From a phage, in assembly GCA_027218345.1 (NCBI GenBank), contig GCA_027218345.1_3950.1: a stretch of 64,000 nt of DNA, one strand, 5' to 3'. Every line of letters begins with the position of its first letter. Position 1 is the stretch's first letter. Below are positions 3,050 to 54,578 of the stretch, piece after piece. A program made the position numbers and the translations under genes. The notes beneath the pieces were generated by a model. It made no database searches. It was given only the letters and a program-made list of their open reading frames with translations, and was not told the DNA's origin.

Positions 3050-3132
3050 TGGCATGGGACGGAGGAGTTGAACCCCTTTGAAACGGTGTTGGAAGCCGTT
3101 GCTCATGTCTTAGAGTCTTAACATCGTCCCAC
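3050..3132 (-). tRNA. tRNA, non-canonical 83 nt, anticodon possibly CCA (Trp)
   Basis: Encoded CCA, discriminator G, acceptor gtgggac/gtcccat, T-loop TTCAACT; D region enlarged, fold uncertain. Confidence 0.4.
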
Positions 3133-3275: not shown

Positions 3276-3357
3276 TGGTCGAGGCGGCAGGACTCGAACC
3301 CGCATACTCCACTTACTCGGTTAACGGCTGTTTAGAAGACAGCTGAGATACGCCCCG
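3276..3357 (-). tRNA. tRNA-Arg-like (anticodon UCU), non-canonical architecture
   Basis: Encoded CCA, acceptor cggggcg/cgcctcg, T-arm GCGGG-TTCGAGT-CCTGC, stem-loop gctgt-CTTCTAA-acagc; no normal D-arm found and about 23 nt before the T-arm. Confidence 0.4.
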
Positions 3358-3561
3358 TAATTATCTTTAAAGACTCTCTTAGAAAGCCCTTAAAGATGCC
3401 CACCTTATTAATCATACCGTGGGCGAGTACGCCAAATTCTTTGATGAGGGGTTGGAAGACCTCACTGGTGTTTAGCCTATCAAGCTACTGCCAGAAAAAC
3501 ATTGTCGTTTGCATTTATTTTAAATTTGCAAAATAGACGCTACGCAACGAAAACTAAGGTT

Positions 3562-3590
3562 ACTATAAAGTAGTCACATCTCAGTGTCAA
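3562..3590 (-). promoter_or_regulatory. sigma70-like promoter candidate inside the tRNA cluster
   Basis: On minus strand TTGACA, 17 nt, TATAGT. Confidence 0.35.
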
Positions 3591-37470: not shown

Positions 37471-37786
37471 CTTGTTGTTCAGGTAAGTTCGCTACGCTTA
37501 CCCCGCTTTATTCAAGCTGCTTACTGTCGCCAGTAAGTCCAGACTATATCTTCTACTTATTTCTAAGTAGCGTACCATTTCGAGTCGCTTGACCCTACAC
37601 CGCTACATTCATCACGGTTAGTCGTTCGGCATTTAGATGTATTCAAACTCATATTCGAAGTTACTTGGCATGTAAGACTCCTATGTTGTATAGTTTCTTA
37701 CATCGTACATCATTTAGCACAGGATTGTCTACTCTTGTAGAGTTTCCCTGTTTAGGCACGTTTTAGATGAGCTATAGAGCTTGTTA
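37471..37786 (-). mobile_element. group I intron (ORF-less) in nrdD
   Basis: 316 nt between exons; 5' exon ends in U, intron ends in G; conserved core similar to T4 td/nrdD introns plus GACUA/UAGUC P7 pairing. Confidence 0.7.
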
Positions 37787-38983
37787 ACCCATCGGCGAAA
37801 TAACCTTGCCAGAACGCTCAAAAGCTTCTGCTACAGCACCATGACCAGATACACTTAAGAAATCTGGATACATCGCTTTAGAGCAACACTCAATAGCTTT
37901 ACTGTACAGGTGACTTTGACAGATATTTTCATCATGTCTCTTCTGGTCATAAATATAAACCAGTTTAGGGAATACAACAGGCTTCTTGCTCTTACCTTGT
38001 CCATTCATACGAACATCTAGGAGAGTACTTGCAATCATGTATTGTAGCCGGTTGTCTTCATTAGACATATCTGAGTCAAGTAAACCAAATGTCAAAGTTG
38101 TGAATGCGAAATCACCACGGCTGCAAGGTACGGTGTTTAGCTTCATTTCAAGTGATTGAAAACCTTGAGTCAATTCAAGCTGTAGCTGCTCCATGACATA
38201 ATTATGGTAATGTTCTTTAGGAATACCATAAGATGCTGCTTTCTCAGCATGGTAACGTAGAGACTTCTTAGCATACGGTACAAGTACCTTATCAATCTCT
38301 GCTAAAGTAAAGCCACCAAATTGCTGTGCAGTTGCTGAAAGAACTACATCACCAATAACCTGTAAGGCTGACAGCACAGACTTTGGTTCACAGTATTCAA
38401 TGCCAGACATTTCAAAGCCACCTTTCAGTACTTTACCAATGTCAAACAAGCAACAGTTAATACCACCAAAAATTAGGTCTCTTAAATCATGGATATAGAT
38501 AAACCCTTTTTCAATGGCTTCAAGTTCCTCTGGTGTTAAGTGGTACTGTTTAAAGATTTCTTTAGTCAGATAACCACGAATAATTGAACCTTTTGTAGAA
38601 ATTAAACTGCTGTCAAAATTAGCGTTTTCTCTGTCACCTAAGAAGAGTGTATCTTTGGTCTTCTGGTAGAGTTCATCCCAATTTTGAGCAACCTCTTTAC
38701 GGTAATTTCTATATGTTGAGTAAGACTCATAAATCTCGTGATTGACTTCTGCCAAAGCACCCTCAACAATACTGTGAATATCATTTACTGAAACGAGTAA
38801 ATTATTCTGCTTAGTGGACTTTACCAGAATCCTCATAAATGCTGACTCAAGAGCTTGGGTAACATCTGGTGGAAGCTCTTTATAACCAACTCTGTTAGCT
38901 GACTTTGTGACTGCTACTAAAACTTTTTTGATATCAGGTTCTTCGAGTGAGCCATTCTTTTTAATAATCTGTACTTTGTTCAT
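37787..38983 (-). CDS. nrdD: anaerobic ribonucleoside-triphosphate reductase, exon 1
   Basis: ORF ends ...ISPMG then in-frame TAA that begins the intron; joins exon 2 to give conserved SPMG-CR. Confidence 0.85.
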
Positions 38984-52168: not shown

Positions 52169-54311
52169 ATGGAAAACGTAGATTTTAAAAACTTACATTT
52201 GGTTGGCGATACAGAAACTGATGGTTTACTCCTTGAGTTCACTAAAGTACACGTAATGGCTTTCGCAGACTATAAATCTGACGATGAAGAGCCACCTGTA
52301 TGGGTCTTTACAGATGAGCCTATCCTCGGTCACAAGTACACTAAGTACATTAAGGGTGGTTTACGTGAAGGTGTTGAGTTTGCGTTAAAGGCAAAACGAC
52401 TTTGTATCCATAACGGCCTCGGTTATGACTGGTGGGTCTTCAATCACATTGCACCGGATTTATGGAACTTTGATAATCCAAAGTGTAAGCCGTGGAGTAA
52501 TTTCTTTCAGGATTCTCTTATCCAGTCTCGTGTTCAGTGGATGGATAGACCAACTCCAAAGGGTTATAAAGGTGCTCATGGCTTGGCTGCATGGGGTGCT
52601 CGTGTTGGTGTCCGTAAACCAGAGATTGAACATTGGGGTGTGTGGAATGCAGAAATCTTCACTCGTGTTGTGGAAGATATCCGTATTAACGCCAAAACTA
52701 AACGCGCACTAGATAATGAATATCTCAAGCTGAAGAAGTGTGGCATAGACACCTATGAAACCTATATGCGAGCTAAAGAAACATCTTTCTGGATGAGTCA
52801 ACAAGCTATCAATGGTTGGAAAGCTGATAAAGAGCTTATGGAGTTCCATGTAAAGGAACTTGACAAGTTGACTAATGAGCTTGCTTCGGAAGTTGAACCA
52901 CATCTTCCTCCAACTATTAAGACCAAAGGTAAAGTTACTGGGGAAGAGTTTGCAAAAGCTTGGAATGAGTATGTTGAAGCATTTGGTCATGCAGATGGAC
53001 TGAAGAGAATCACCAAGTACCCTAAGACAAAGTATCGTCAGCAGGTACGTAATGGTGAAATGCAGACATATGAAATCAAGCCATTTGGTAAGCCAACTAC
53101 AAAGATTTTTAACATTGAAAAGAGAAATTGCTATACGCCAACCAACTCTGTAACTGGTGAAGAGTACAAGGAAGGTTTTGTAGCAATGAAGGATGCTCGT
53201 GCAATTTGCAATGAGTTGAACGCAAAGATTGGTAAGAAATGCAAAGACTGGAAGCCAGTAAAAACAGTCAAAACTGTGAAGTACTATAACAGCCACGTTG
53301 TTAACCACTTTGAACTTGAGTCAAGTCGCTACACAGGATTGATTGATGCACCATATACACCAATTGAGTTTGAAGTTTCTCGTATGACTCAGGTAGCAGT
53401 TGTTAAAGACTACTTGAAATCAGTTGGTTGGATTCCAGATGACTGGAACTACAAGAAAGACTCAGATGGTCGCCCTGTCAAAGTTTGTCGTTTCAAAGAC
53501 AATAAAAAGATGATTACAAAGCATCCTAAGTGGCAGGAGATGGTTGAGCGGTGTGGTTTGAGCTATGTTGAGCATGAAGGTGTACAGTACATTGAGCATA
53601 ACTGGTCTGTGAAGAAATACACAGATTTGCTTGAGCCTTGCTTAATCCGTACTTCACCAAAACTTACTGAATCATCTTATGATACGATTGAAGGTGAACT
53701 TGGACAGAAGATTGCTAAGTACTATACTTTGATGCACAGACGCAGAACTATTGAGAACTCAAAGGATGATGAAAAAGGTTGGTTGAACCAGATTCGTCCT
53801 GATGGTCGCCTTAGTGCTGGTGCAATGGTATTTGGTACTTCAACTGGACGTATGACACAATATGGTATTGTAAACGTACCGTCTGGTGCTGCTGTCTATG
53901 GAGCACCTATGAGGGCAGTGTGGATTTGTGAAGATGGAACCAACGTAGTCTCCGTTGATATGAACTCAGCCCAGCTAGTTCTTCTTTGCAACTTTATGGG
54001 TGATAAAGAGTTCACTAAAGCAGTAACTGAAGGTAAAGAGTCAGTAGAATTTACCAAGCAAGAAGATGGGAGGTATTATTGCAAACATCTTGATAAGTAC
54101 CTTAATCCAGAAACTGATAAGTATCTTCGTTATGATGCTGAGAATGACCTCTATGAGGTCTACACAGGGACTGATGCGCATACACTGAACAGTATTTACT
54201 TTGGTCTGAACAAGGAGGAAGATATTGTTCGTTGTAGGGAGACACAGGATGAGGAACTTCTTCACGAGATTACAAAAGGCCGTAAGAAAGCCAAAAATGG
54301 CATTTATGCGT
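52169..54311 (+). CDS. DNA polymerase family A, exon 1
   Basis: 3'-5' exo motif LVGDTETDGL at N-terminus; ends inside motif B (RKKAKNGIYA); start set at MENVDF after GAGGGA RBS. Confidence 0.85.
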
Positions 54312-54578
54312 CAGTGGCGCATGTAAAACGTTGTGAATTGCTGGAAGCCTAAGTCTGTAAAGATATGGTAATCAGCAGCGAAGCCTCTTAAGAGGAACGT
54401 TCAGAGACTATCGAAAAGCATACTTAACGTATGAACTGAGTAGAGTAGGGTGGTAAGCTAATGACCATCCCAAGTGCAACGGTAGCACCACTGCTACGTG
54501 ATATAGTCCGACACTCCGTAGAAATGCGGAGAAGTTCATAAGAGAACTGGTACACCTTGCGAGTGTATTGACCAGATG
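54312..54578 (+). mobile_element. group I intron (ORF-less) in DNA polymerase motif B
   Basis: 267 nt; exon ends in U pairing with intron GCGCAU guide (terminal U-G wobble); P/Q/R/S-like elements AATTGCTGGAAG, AATCAGCAGCG, GTTCAGAGACTATCG, GATATAGTCCG; intron ends in G. Confidence 0.7.

What the first reader, a model, noticed from the sequence alone, without database searches (positions are those of the whole stretch)
3276..3357. tRNA-Arg(UCU)-like gene with aberrant architecture
A clean acceptor stem, encoded CCA, a canonical T-arm and a perfect stem-loop gctgt-CTTCTAA-acagc are present. However the anticodon-like arm sits only 7 nt after the acceptor stem, with no recognisable D-arm, and about 23 nt lie between it and the T-arm. 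It could be a D-arm-lacking or rearranged tRNA, a pseudogene or a tRNA-like regulatory RNA. The 83-nt tRNA at 3050-3132 is also irregular.
Basis: seen in the sequence. Interest (0 to 1): 0.45.

Follow-up and report, generated by a model that had tools for sequence, protein, structure and literature searches.

The report
Phage arginine tRNA with rewired core
This Felix O1-like phage, and many unrelated phages, carry a conserved arginine tRNA gene whose D-stem encloses the anticodon arm and whose D-loop sits just before the T-arm, a layout that standard tRNA finders miss and that I could not find described.

Summary
On the minus strand at 3357->3276 there is a 7-bp acceptor stem, A73 and an encoded CCA. 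There is also a canonical T-arm and a 5-bp anticodon arm with loop CUUCUAA (UCU). No D hairpin lies between them. It is not a pseudogene. At least 54 distinct homologues occur in unrelated phages, including Felixounavirus, Justusliebigvirus, Mydovirus, T5-like Klebsiella phages, jumbo phages, and Streptomyces and Vibrio phages. All helices covary (98.7-99.2% of cells paired). A fourth short helix joins UCUC (just after U8-A9) to GAGU, 26 nt downstream, and so encloses the anticodon arm. All three of its Watson-Crick pairs covary. The next stretch, AAGUGGAGUA-U, reads like a D-loop (A14, R15, G18, G19, A20, A21) plus Y48. Anticodons are almost all Arg (UCU, CCU, UCG, ACG), with A20, C35 and A/G73. 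A few members are Ile (GAU, UAU). The phage has no other tRNA-Arg, and 29% of its Arg codons are AGA. Sister genera carry a canonical tRNA-Arg(UCU) at the same position. Best reading: a functional tRNA-Arg(UCU) with a rearranged core. Charging and the L-shape are inferred, not shown. Two other things lie nearby: an irregular tRNA-Trp-like gene and an unannotated tmRNA-like tag RNA.

The parts
3351..3357 (-). Acceptor stem, 5' strand (CGGGGCG).
   Evidence: Pairs with 3280-3286. All 7 pairs covary in the family.
3349..3350 (-). U8 A9 connector.
   Evidence: Invariant in 44 of 44 aligned members.
3345..3348 (-). Helix 2 (D-stem equivalent), 5' strand UCUC.
   Evidence: C-N-C pairs with G-N-G at 3316-3318. 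Pair 12:41 is UA36/GC8/AU6/CG4. Pair 13:40 is CG/GC, plus UA. Pair 11:42 is CG/AU/GC.
3344..3344 (-). Single A between helix 2 and the anticodon stem (equivalent of position 26).
   Evidence: A in 36 of 44 members, C in 7, U in 1.
3327..3343 (-). Anticodon arm GCUGU-CUUCUAA-ACAGC. The anticodon UCU is at 3336-3334.
   Evidence: All 5 stem pairs covary. The loop is C32 U33 UCU A37 A38. The family uses UCU, CCU, UCG, ACG, GAU and UAU.
3319..3326 (-). Linker CGUUAACC (equivalent of the variable loop, bulged out of the helix 2/anticodon stack).
   Evidence: CGUUAA is conserved in the main subfamily. Divergent members have only 3-5 nt here.
3315..3318 (-). Helix 2, 3' strand GAGU.
   Evidence: It covaries with 3345-3348. 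The second GAGU copy (3305-3308) does not change when the 5' strand does.
3304..3314 (-). Displaced D-loop-like connector AAGUGGAGUA plus U (proposed A14, R15, G18, G19, A20, A21 and Y48).
   Evidence: AA, GG and the final AU are invariant, including in divergent members. The A after GG is A in 43 of 44 members and U only in the UAU (Ile) member. The canonical orthologue has D-loop AAUUGGAUA.
3287..3303 (-). T-arm GCGGG-UUCGAGU-CCUGC.
   Evidence: Three of the 5 pairs show double changes. The loop is UUCRANY.
3279..3286 (-). Acceptor stem 3' strand CGCCUCG plus discriminator A73 (3279).
   Evidence: The discriminator is A or G in 42 of 44 members.
3276..3278 (-). Encoded CCA end.
   Evidence: Read directly. 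CCA is encoded in most family members.
3562..3590 (-). Sigma-70-type promoter TTGACA-17-TATAGT. It would drive the tag RNA plus this tRNA as one transcript.
   Evidence: 11 of 12 consensus matches. PD06 has a comparable promoter directly upstream of its copy of the tRNA.

Best explanation
The element is a functional phage tRNA-Arg that reads AGA (and probably AGG). Its core is wired in a non-canonical order.

After the acceptor stem and U8-A9, the chain enters one strand of a short helix (UCUC). It continues through a single A into a normal anticodon arm and leaves through an 8-nt linker. It then forms the other strand of the short helix (GAGU). Only after that does it run through a D-loop-like stretch (AAGUGGAGUA-U) into a normal T-arm. 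In standard numbering, block 10-21 and block 22-47 appear in the order B-A instead of A-B.

The short helix stacks on the anticodon stem. That gives about the same 10 layers as D-stem plus position 26 plus anticodon stem in a normal tRNA. The displaced D-loop can still supply A14 (to U8), R15 (to Y48), G18/G19 (to the T-loop) and A20. The three new chain junctions are 9->22, 47->10 and 21->48. Each joins residues that are neighbours in the canonical L-shape. So the molecule can plausibly fold as an L, be cut by RNase P, be charged by host ArgRS (A20, C35, U36, A73) and be carried by EF-Tu (7/5 acceptor/T stack).

Shown here: the secondary structure including the long-range helix; family-wide conservation; restriction to Arg and Ile anticodons; the absence of any other tRNA-Arg in the phage; and replacement of a canonical tRNA-Arg(UCU) at the same position.

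Inferred: expression, the L-shaped fold, arginylation and use on the ribosome.
For: (1) Structure. In alignment A1 (44 distinct sequences), 99.2% of cells are paired, 16 of 20 pairs carry double changes, and 0 of 500 shuffles reach this. Versions with the 3' partners slid by 1-3 columns give 34-46% paired. With 54 members including divergent ones, 98.7% are paired, 18 of 20 pairs covary, and all three pairs of helix 2 covary. A scan that left the 3' strand of helix 2 free found UCUU/AAGU, UCAG/CUGU and UCAU/AUGU. All the top mutual-information pairs are the proposed pairs. RNAalifold finds the acceptor, anticodon and T helices on its own.

(2) Core nucleotides. U8, the A-A after helix 2, GG, and the A-U before the T-stem are invariant.

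(3) Identity. The anticodons are UCU (nearly all), CCU, UCG and ACG. The A20 equivalent is A in 43 of 44 members, and U only in the UAU member. The discriminator is A or G in 42 of 44. The Arg identity set A20, C35, U/C36 (as that review writes it; given as U/G36 elsewhere in this report, from my own knowledge) and A/G73 is taken from PMC9976931.

(4) Need. The 24 canonical tRNAs in the window include no Arg. The complete REP9 tRNA cluster has no Arg other than this element, which is annotated 'tRNA-OTHER Nd_NNN'. AGA makes up 29% and AGG 8% of Arg codons in 43 long ORFs.

(5) Same position in relatives. Suspvirus and Mooglevirus carry a canonical tRNA-Arg(UCU) at exactly this place, after the same upstream RNA.

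(6) Breadth. Members occur in Felixounavirus, Justusliebigvirus PD06, Mydovirus KB57, a T5-like Klebsiella phage (Riker), the jumbo phage fEgEco12, Streptomyces phage BoomerJR, Vibrio phage 1.170.O and many IMG/VR contigs. A scan of 185,579 species genomes found only four members, all on MAG contigs, three of which also carry ARAGORN-called tRNA genes (14, 3 and 1); only L080 is a clear tRNA cluster.
Against: There is no direct evidence of transcription, processing, CCA-ended mature RNA, aminoacylation or ribosomal use.

Helix 2 has only 3 Watson-Crick pairs plus a conserved U.U, and RNAalifold does not predict it. The single-sequence minimum-energy fold is different and no better than shuffles.

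The 3D argument is reasoning from known tertiary contacts in canonical tRNA. It is not a model or a structure. By sequence, the 5' strand (YCUC) looks like canonical 10-13 and the 3' strand (GAGY) like canonical 22-25. So in space the helix would have its strands exchanged relative to a normal D-stem, and the canonical base triples could not be identical.

Much of the family was collected with sequence patterns that fix parts of the linker and the D-loop-like stretch. The invariance of those columns is therefore partly built in. The divergent members found with the covariance model reduce this concern but do not remove it.

The literature search covered open-access papers only.
Confidence: 0.72

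Rival explanations
1. It is a tRNA-like RNA that is not used in translation. It could be a decoy or sponge for a host tRNA-directed nuclease or modification enzyme. Or it could be mainly an RNase P processing handle that defines the 3' end of the upstream tag RNA.
For: It lies directly 3' of the tmRNA-like tag RNA on what looks like one transcript. In other phages that tag RNA is followed by tRNA-like domains or by tRNAs. The architecture is not one known to work on ribosomes.
Against: A decoy or processing handle would not need all of the following: conserved Arg-family anticodons with U33 and A37, the A20 equivalent, A/G73, a 7/5 acceptor/T stack and an encoded CCA. In PD06, fEgEco12, KB57 and Riker the element occurs without the tag RNA, among ordinary tRNA genes or behind its own promoter. 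It takes the place of the only tRNA-Arg(UCU).
Confidence: 0.15
2. It is the tRNA-like domain that works with the upstream tag-encoding RNA as an unusual tmRNA, charged with alanine through G3.U70.
For: In the window the acceptor stem has G3.U70 and A73, which is the AlaRS identity pair. A tmRNA-type tag ORF (ANDNVFLAVA*) lies 122 nt upstream on the same strand.
Against: G3.U70 is not conserved. Pair 3:76 is GC20/GU7/AU6/CG6/UA5. The element has a full anticodon arm, which tmRNA lacks. Most family members have no tag RNA nearby. In Suspvirus a canonical tRNA-Arg sits in its place behind the same tag RNA. If RNase P cuts at position 1, the two RNAs are separated.
Confidence: 0.04
3. It is a decaying tRNA pseudogene, or a chance tRNA-like arrangement left by recombination in the tRNA cluster.
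For: ARAGORN and the default Rfam run do not call it. Most GenBank records leave it unannotated or call it 'tRNA-OTHER'. One truncated copy (L072) and one interrupted copy (L077:1458-1540) exist.
Against: There are 54 distinct sequences with 98.7% of cells paired and compensatory changes in all four helices, across phages of Gram-negative and Gram-positive hosts. Loop and core nucleotides are invariant.
Confidence: 0.03
4. The gene is rearranged, but the RNA is cut and rejoined into a canonical tRNA. This is what happens with the permuted tRNA genes of some algae and archaea.
For: Block order differs from the canonical order. Some phages encode RNA ligase and kinase-phosphatase repair enzymes (own knowledge).
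Against: The 5' and 3' ends are already in normal order, so two internal cuts and two ligations would be needed. I did not specifically look for a bulge-helix-bulge or other splice motif at the block junctions. The linker and the junction nucleotides are themselves conserved as if they function in the mature RNA. The hosts are bacteria without a tRNA splicing endonuclease (own knowledge).
Confidence: 0.02

Closest known systems
Canonical bacterial and phage tRNA-Arg(UCU). Examples are E. coli argU and the gene at the same position in Suspvirus EcSzw_1/CHB7 (L085:363-439).
   Same: Shared features: a 7-bp acceptor stem, U8-A9, a 5-bp anticodon stem with loop CUUCUAA, a T-arm with UUCGARU, A/G73, CCA, the D-loop motif AAUUGGA with A20, and the same genomic position and the same presumed job of reading AGA.
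   Different: In the canonical gene the D-loop lies between the two D-stem strands, and the anticodon arm follows the D-arm. Here the anticodon arm lies between the two strands, and the D-loop motif follows them, directly before the T-arm.
D-arm-lacking mitochondrial tRNAs, such as metazoan mt tRNA-Ser(AGY/UCU) (review PMC7609411).
   Same: No D hairpin in the usual place. The anticodon arm starts a few nucleotides after the acceptor stem.
   Different: The mitochondrial RNAs are short. They replace the D-arm with a short flexible connector, and I believe they have lost the G18/G19 contacts with the T-loop (own knowledge). This RNA is full length (79 nt plus CCA). It keeps the GG, A14, A21 and Y48 equivalents and a standard T-loop, and it has a covarying D-stem equivalent.
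tRNAs with 8/4 or 9/3 acceptor/T configurations (allo-tRNAs and phage 8/4 tRNA-Ser and tRNA-His; Mukai et al., PMC5389517).
   Same: They are natural non-canonical cloverleaf variants found in bacteria and their phages, detected only by dedicated searches.
   Different: Those variants change helix lengths but keep the order of the four arms. This element has a normal 7/5 acceptor branch but a different order of the core segments. The neighbouring element at 3050-3132 is the one that resembles the 8/4 type.
Permuted and split tRNA genes of Cyanidioschyzon and of archaea (own knowledge).
   Same: The order of tRNA segments in the gene differs from the standard order.
   Different: In those genes the 3' half precedes the 5' half, and processing restores a canonical mature tRNA. 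Here the ends are in normal order, the rearrangement is internal, and it is expected to remain in the mature RNA.
The tRNA-like domain of tmRNA.
   Same: Acceptor stem, T-arm, reduced D region, CCA, and in this window G3.U70. A tag-encoding RNA lies next to it.
   Different: The element has a complete anticodon arm with Arg anticodons. G3.U70 is not conserved in the family. The family is mostly found without the tag RNA.

Membership tests
tRNA (canonical cloverleaf; Rfam RF00005) | 7-bp acceptor stem, discriminator base, 3' CCA. | tested here: met
   3357-3351 pairs with 3286-3280. A73 is at 3279 and CCA at 3278-3276. All 7 pairs covary.
tRNA (canonical cloverleaf; Rfam RF00005) | T-arm: 5-bp stem and 7-nt loop UUCRANY. 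| tested here: met
   GCGGG-UUCGAGU-CCUGC. In the family, 99% of cells are paired.
tRNA (canonical cloverleaf; Rfam RF00005) | Anticodon arm: 5-bp stem and 7-nt loop with U33 and a purine at 37. | tested here: met
   GCUGU-CUUCUAA-ACAGC. All five pairs covary.
tRNA (canonical cloverleaf; Rfam RF00005) | D-arm hairpin (stem 10-13/22-25 closing the D-loop) between position 9 and the anticodon arm. | tested here: not met
   Only UCUC-A separates A9 from the anticodon stem. The Rfam alignment deletes 15 model positions. The partner strand and the D-loop motif lie 3' of the anticodon arm.
tRNA (canonical cloverleaf; Rfam RF00005) | Score at or above the curated gathering threshold; detection by a standard tRNA finder. 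| tested here: inconclusive
   31.2 bits against a gathering score of 29, but only with permissive filters. The default gathering run does not list it. ARAGORN is negative for the window and for homologues. GenBank annotators' tools give 'tRNA-OTHER Nd_NNN'.
tRNA-Arg as recognised by bacterial ArgRS | A20 in the D-loop, C35, U/G36, A/G73 (PMC9976931). | tested here: met
   C35 and U36 are present. The A following GG (the A20 equivalent) is A in 43 of 44 members. A/G73 occurs in 42 of 44. Whether ArgRS can reach the displaced A20 cannot be tested here.
D-arm-lacking (mitochondrial-type) tRNA | The D-arm is replaced by a short unpaired connector and D-loop/T-loop contacts are lost. | tested here: not met
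   A covarying helix equivalent to the D-stem exists. The GG and other core nucleotides are invariant.
tmRNA tRNA-like domain | A conserved G3.U70 alanine identity pair, no anticodon arm, and covalent or paired linkage to the tag reading frame. | tested here: not met
   G3.U70 occurs in only 7 of 44 members. An anticodon arm is present. Most members have no tag RNA nearby. ARAGORN finds no tmRNA.
Permuted tRNA gene (processed to a canonical tRNA) | The 3' half lies upstream of the 5' half, with processing motifs at the junction. | tested here: not met
   The acceptor 5' and 3' strands are in normal order and enclose the whole gene.
8/4 non-canonical tRNA (Mukai et al.), considered for the neighbouring element 3050-3132 | An 8-bp acceptor stem with a 4-bp T-stem, 12 bp in all. 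| tested here: inconclusive
   GUGGGACG/CGUCCCAU (8 bp) and GGGG/CCUC (4 bp) can be drawn. A 7/5 fold with an A49.C65 mismatch uses the same nucleotides. The few homologues do not vary at the deciding pair.

The most novel reading that the evidence does not exclude
The rewired core is an adaptation, not an accident. It keeps charging and decoding but removes the contiguous D-arm hairpin. That would make this tRNA-Arg (and the Ile versions) invisible to a host tRNA-directed defence nuclease or modification enzyme. This would explain why the gene has spread horizontally among unrelated phages and has displaced the canonical tRNA-Arg(UCU) in Felixounavirus. If so, it would also show that the ribosome, EF-Tu, RNase P and ArgRS accept a tRNA whose core strands are connected in a different order.
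Probability: 0.2. Interest if true: 0.88.

Novelty: new variant of a known kind. Interest (0 to 1): 0.72.

Why it matters
If this RNA is charged and used, it is a natural tRNA whose core segments are connected in a different order from the universal cloverleaf. It would still keep the nucleotides that build the L-shape. That would separate what the translation machinery needs in three dimensions from what it needs in chain connectivity. It would also offer a new scaffold for engineered tRNAs.

There are practical consequences. Standard annotation (ARAGORN, default Rfam, PGAP-style pipelines) misses or mislabels the gene. As a result, Felix O1-like and many other phages, including therapeutic candidates, appear to lack a tRNA-Arg that they most likely have. 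Studies that compare phage tRNA sets with codon usage are biased in the same way.

The gene is widespread in phages and almost absent from cellular genomes. It also replaced the canonical gene at the same position. Together these make it a candidate for a phage-specific adaptation in the contest over host tRNA pools.

Tried and rejected
1. tmRNA idea. I first suspected a tmRNA-like domain, because of G3.U70, A73 and the tag ORF upstream. I rejected this because G3.U70 is not conserved and the two elements occur independently of each other.

2. Single-sequence fold. The minimum-energy fold pairs CUC with the second GAGU copy and breaks the anticodon stem. I rejected it because the anticodon stem covaries, and only the first GAGU changes together with the 5' strand.

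3. Long variable arm. I looked for a hairpin within the 23-nt region (CC...GG), as in a class II tRNA. There is no covariation for it.

4. Standard tools. ARAGORN and the Rfam gathering run gave no call for the element.

5. Covariance model on tag-RNA loci. Model R1 found no rewired tRNA at 58 tag-RNA loci.

6. Cellular genomes. The scan found only MAG contigs, with four true members.

7. Literature. Five full-text searches aimed at this tRNA architecture found no description of it., listed with them originally, targeted the tag RNA and tmRNA instead. The review of non-canonical tRNAs does not mention phages or this layout. A catalogue of candidate viral structured RNAs mentions tRNA-like candidates, one of which overlaps a tRNA-Arg prediction. 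I could not check whether that candidate is this family.

8. Tag RNA. I tried to find a tRNA-like domain for the tag RNA in its flanks. I found repeated stem units and T-arm-like hairpins in prophage versions but could not assemble a convincing tmRNA.

Full report
**Context.** The window comes from a Felix O1-like phage (Felixounavirus). The region is 97-98% identical to Salmonella phage BPS17W1 and Escherichia phage REP9. A cluster of 24 canonical tRNA genes lies on the minus strand between 99 and 5383. The finding sits inside this cluster.

The minus strand 3357->3276 reads CGGGGCG UA UCUC A GCUGU CUUCUAA ACAGC CGUUAACCGAGUAAGUGGAGUAU GCGGG UUCGAGU CCUGC CGCCUCG A CCA.
- So is the perfect stem-loop with an Arg(UCU)-type loop.
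- The spacings of 7 nt and 23 nt are also as described.

ARAGORN does not call the element, and the default Rfam run does not list it. With permissive filters the Rfam tRNA model reaches 31.2 bits against a threshold of 29. It does so by deleting the D-arm and inserting 20 nt in the variable region. So software finds no canonical fold. Some GenBank records label the homologous gene 'tRNA-OTHER Nd_NNN' or simply 'tRNA'. Most leave it unannotated.

**It belongs to a conserved family, not a decaying gene.** BLAST found copies 84-88% identical in unrelated phages:
- Justusliebigvirus PD06
- jumbo phage fEgEco12
- Mydovirus KB57
- the T5-like Klebsiella phage Riker
- Streptomyces phage BoomerJR
- a Vibrio phage copy at 76% identity, with anticodon CCU

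Pattern scans of IMG/VR added dozens more. Forty-four distinct sequences were aligned (A1). I tested a structure with four helices. In it, 99.2% of cells are paired and 16 of 20 pairs carry changes on both sides. None of 500 shuffles reaches this, and versions with the partners slid by 1-3 columns give 34-46% paired. RNAalifold recovers the acceptor, anticodon and T helices on its own. Every top mutual-information pair is one of the proposed pairs.

**The fourth helix is the key point.**
- UCUC, directly after U8-A9, pairs with the first GAGU of the 23-nt region.
- Where the 5' strand is UCGC, UCAC or UCCC, the partner is GCGU, GUGU or GGGU. The second GAGU copy stays unchanged.
- A covariance model built from A1 found divergent members scoring 38-76 bits. 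Canonical tRNAs score at most 34.
- With these members included, all three Watson-Crick pairs of this helix covary: 11:42 is CG52/AU1/GC1, 12:41 is UA36/GC8/AU6/CG4, and 13:40 is CG51/GC2. That alignment is fitted to the model, so it leans towards the structure.
- To remove the bias from my own search patterns, I scanned with a pattern that leaves the 3' strand free. It returned eight new loci with UCUU/AAGU, UCAG/CUGU and UCAT/ATGT.

So the D-stem equivalent is real, and it encloses the anticodon arm.

**What follows the helix looks like a D-loop.**
- The next 11 nt are AAGUGGAGUA-U. The commonest family form is AAUUGGAGUA-U.
- The canonical tRNA-Arg(UCU) of the related Suspvirus has the D-loop AAUUGGAUA.
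- The A-A, the GG and the final A-U are invariant. This also holds in divergent members whose connector is 12-17 nt long.
- I read these as A14, R15, G18, G19, (A20), A21 and Y48.
- In the divergent members the linker after the anticodon stem shrinks to 3-5 nt, the size of an ordinary variable loop.

The general plan is: acceptor, U8-A9, strand a, N, anticodon arm, linker, strand a', D-loop-like stretch, T-arm, acceptor. In standard numbering, blocks 10-21 and 22-47 are in swapped order.

**Inference on the fold.** Strand polarity means the 5' strand must occupy the place of 22-25 and the 3' strand the place of 10-13. The three new junctions are 9->22, 47->10 and 21->48. Each joins residues that are neighbours in the canonical fold, through the 9-12-23 triple, the 45-10-25 triple, and the stacked 8-14-21 and 15-48 layers. 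This part rests on established tRNA structure knowledge. It is not a computation.

**Evidence that it is the phage's tRNA-Arg.**
- Anticodons in the family are UCU (nearly all), CCU, UCG and ACG. A few members from one contig carry GAU and UAU.
- The Arg members keep the bacterial ArgRS identity set: the A20 equivalent, C35, U/G36 and A/G73 (PMC9976931).
- The A20 equivalent is A in 43 of 44 members. It is U only in the UAU member. A/G73 occurs in 42 of 44.
- The window's 24 canonical tRNAs include no Arg.
- In the complete REP9 genome the tRNA cluster is bounded by protein genes. It contains no Arg apart from this element.
- AGA makes up 29% of Arg codons in the window's long ORFs, and AGG 8%.
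- In the sister genera Suspvirus (EcSzw_1, CHB7) and Mooglevirus (ESh22), a canonical tRNA-Arg(UCU) occupies exactly this position, directly after the same upstream RNA. The rewired gene is therefore a positional replacement for the canonical one.
- A scan of one genome for each of 185,579 bacterial and archaeal species found only four true members. All are on MAG contigs, three of which also carry ARAGORN-called tRNA genes (14, 3 and 1); only L080 is a clear tRNA cluster. So the family appears to be specific to phages.

**What is not shown.** Transcription, RNase P processing, the L-shaped fold, arginylation and ribosomal use are all inferred. A good sigma-70-type promoter lies at 3590->3562, and PD06 has a similar one directly upstream of its copy. 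Helix 2 is short and thermodynamic prediction does not find it.

**Rivals.** See the rival entries for details.
- A non-translational tRNA-like RNA: about 0.15.
- A tmRNA partner: about 0.04. Rejected because G3.U70 is not conserved and the two elements occur independently.
- A pseudogene: about 0.03. Contradicted by the covariation.
- RNA-level rearrangement into a canonical tRNA: about 0.02.

**Comparison with what is known.**
- It works like a tRNA-Arg(UCU) and meets every defining feature of a tRNA except the D-arm hairpin.
- It is not a D-armless tRNA of the mitochondrial type, because it keeps a D-stem equivalent and the D/T-loop nucleotides.
- It is not an 8/4 or 9/3 variant (PMC5389517).
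- It is not a permuted gene of the algal or archaeal kind.
- Five full-text searches aimed at this tRNA layout found no description of it; searched for the tag RNA/tmRNA instead. The review of non-canonical tRNAs has none either (PMC7609411).
- The search covers open-access papers only, so an earlier description elsewhere cannot be excluded.

I therefore file it as a new variant of a known kind.

**Side findings.**
1. *Element at 3132->3050.* This is an irregular tRNA-Trp-like gene.
   - Its anticodon stem covaries (AACGG/CCGUU against GUAAG/CUUAC).
   - The loop reads as CCA if C31.A39 closes it.
   - It has G73, and A1-U72 in relatives. Tryptophan identity rests on the discriminator, the anticodon and the first pair (PMC9976931).
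   - A 3-bp D-stem covaries (CUC/GAG against CAC/GUG).
   - A 7-nt connector precedes that stem.
   - The acceptor/T branch can be drawn as 8/4.
   - Trp is the other amino acid missing from the canonical set.
2. *Tag RNA between the promoter and the rewired tRNA (about 3553->3358).* This is a structured RNA with a tmRNA-type tag frame, GCA AAC GAC AAU GUU UUU CUG GCA GUA GCU UGA = ANDNVFLAVA* (3512->3480).
   - Homologues occur in Kuttervirus, Carvajevirus and many lambdoid prophages. Their tags follow AN[DE]xx[FY]LAVA and differ mainly by synonymous or conservative changes.
   - A pseudoknot helix covaries.
   - The RNA is present in 171 of 5,426 complete E. coli genomes and is unannotated there. 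In the one E. coli prophage I examined (L154) it lies between the Q antiterminator gene and the holin gene.
   - ARAGORN finds no tmRNA, and Rfam gives only weak tmRNA-type hits.
   - I could not identify its tRNA-like partner.

Noticed in passing
window 3358-3553 (minus strand); tag frame 3512->3480: An unannotated structured RNA carries a tmRNA-type tag reading frame (ANDNVFLAVA*) directly upstream of the tRNA and behind a strong promoter. Homologues with tags AN[DE]xx[FY]LAVA occur in Kuttervirus (Cba120), Carvajevirus, many lambdoid prophages (between Q and the holin gene in the one examined, L154) and 171 of 5,426 complete E. coli genomes. Changes in the tag are synonymous or conservative, and a pseudoknot helix covaries. 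ARAGORN finds no tmRNA and Rfam gives only weak hits (tmRNA 15.9 bits, tmRNA_permuted 21 bits). I identified no tRNA-like partner.
   Followed up: partly
window 3050-3132 (minus strand): A second irregular tRNA, probably tRNA-Trp(CCA). The anticodon stem covaries with relatives. The loop is 9 nt, or 7 nt closed by C31.A39. It has G73 and A1-U72/G1.U72, a 3-bp D-stem with a compensatory change, a 7-nt connector AUGUUAA and a possible 8/4 acceptor/T branch. ARAGORN and Rfam both miss it. It is restricted to Ounavirinae.
   Followed up: partly
L074:4121-4197, L074:5182-5262, L074:5269-5347; L070:2689-2763; L042:3788-3865: The same rewired architecture is used with other anticodons. One viral contig has GAU twice and UAU once (Ile), and ARAGORN calls no Ile or Arg tRNA there. 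Other contigs have ACG and UCG (Arg). In these members the linker is only 3-5 nt.
   Followed up: partly
L085:447-566 and L087 (about 438-557), Suspvirus: Suspvirus has an extra tRNA-like RNA of about 120 nt, with a 7-bp acceptor stem, a T-arm and CCA but a long unassigned interior. It lies between the canonical tRNA-Arg and the Trp-like element, and is absent from the window.
   Followed up: no
L010:598-1094; records tootiki and vB_EcoM_I14.1; L086:201-548: HNH homing-endonuclease genes lie immediately next to, or overlap the annotation of, the rewired or canonical tRNA-Arg in several phages. This could explain cassette-like replacement and horizontal spread of the gene.
   Followed up: no
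window 54249-54531 (+) and 37520-37894 (-): Two group I introns reach the Rfam gathering score, at 62.8 and 54.3 bits.
   Followed up: no
L088, L104, L153 (prophage versions of the tag RNA), -150 to +350 around the tag: Repeated units of the form GGUAAGAGCAUUG ... CAGUGCUCUUUCC(A) flank the tag RNA. They form stems of about 10 bp, and some enclose a T-arm-like hairpin preceded by AUUAUUGG. The unit upstream of the tag RNA ends in UCCA. They may be tRNA-like processing signals or parts of a split tRNA-like domain. This is unresolved.
   Followed up: partly
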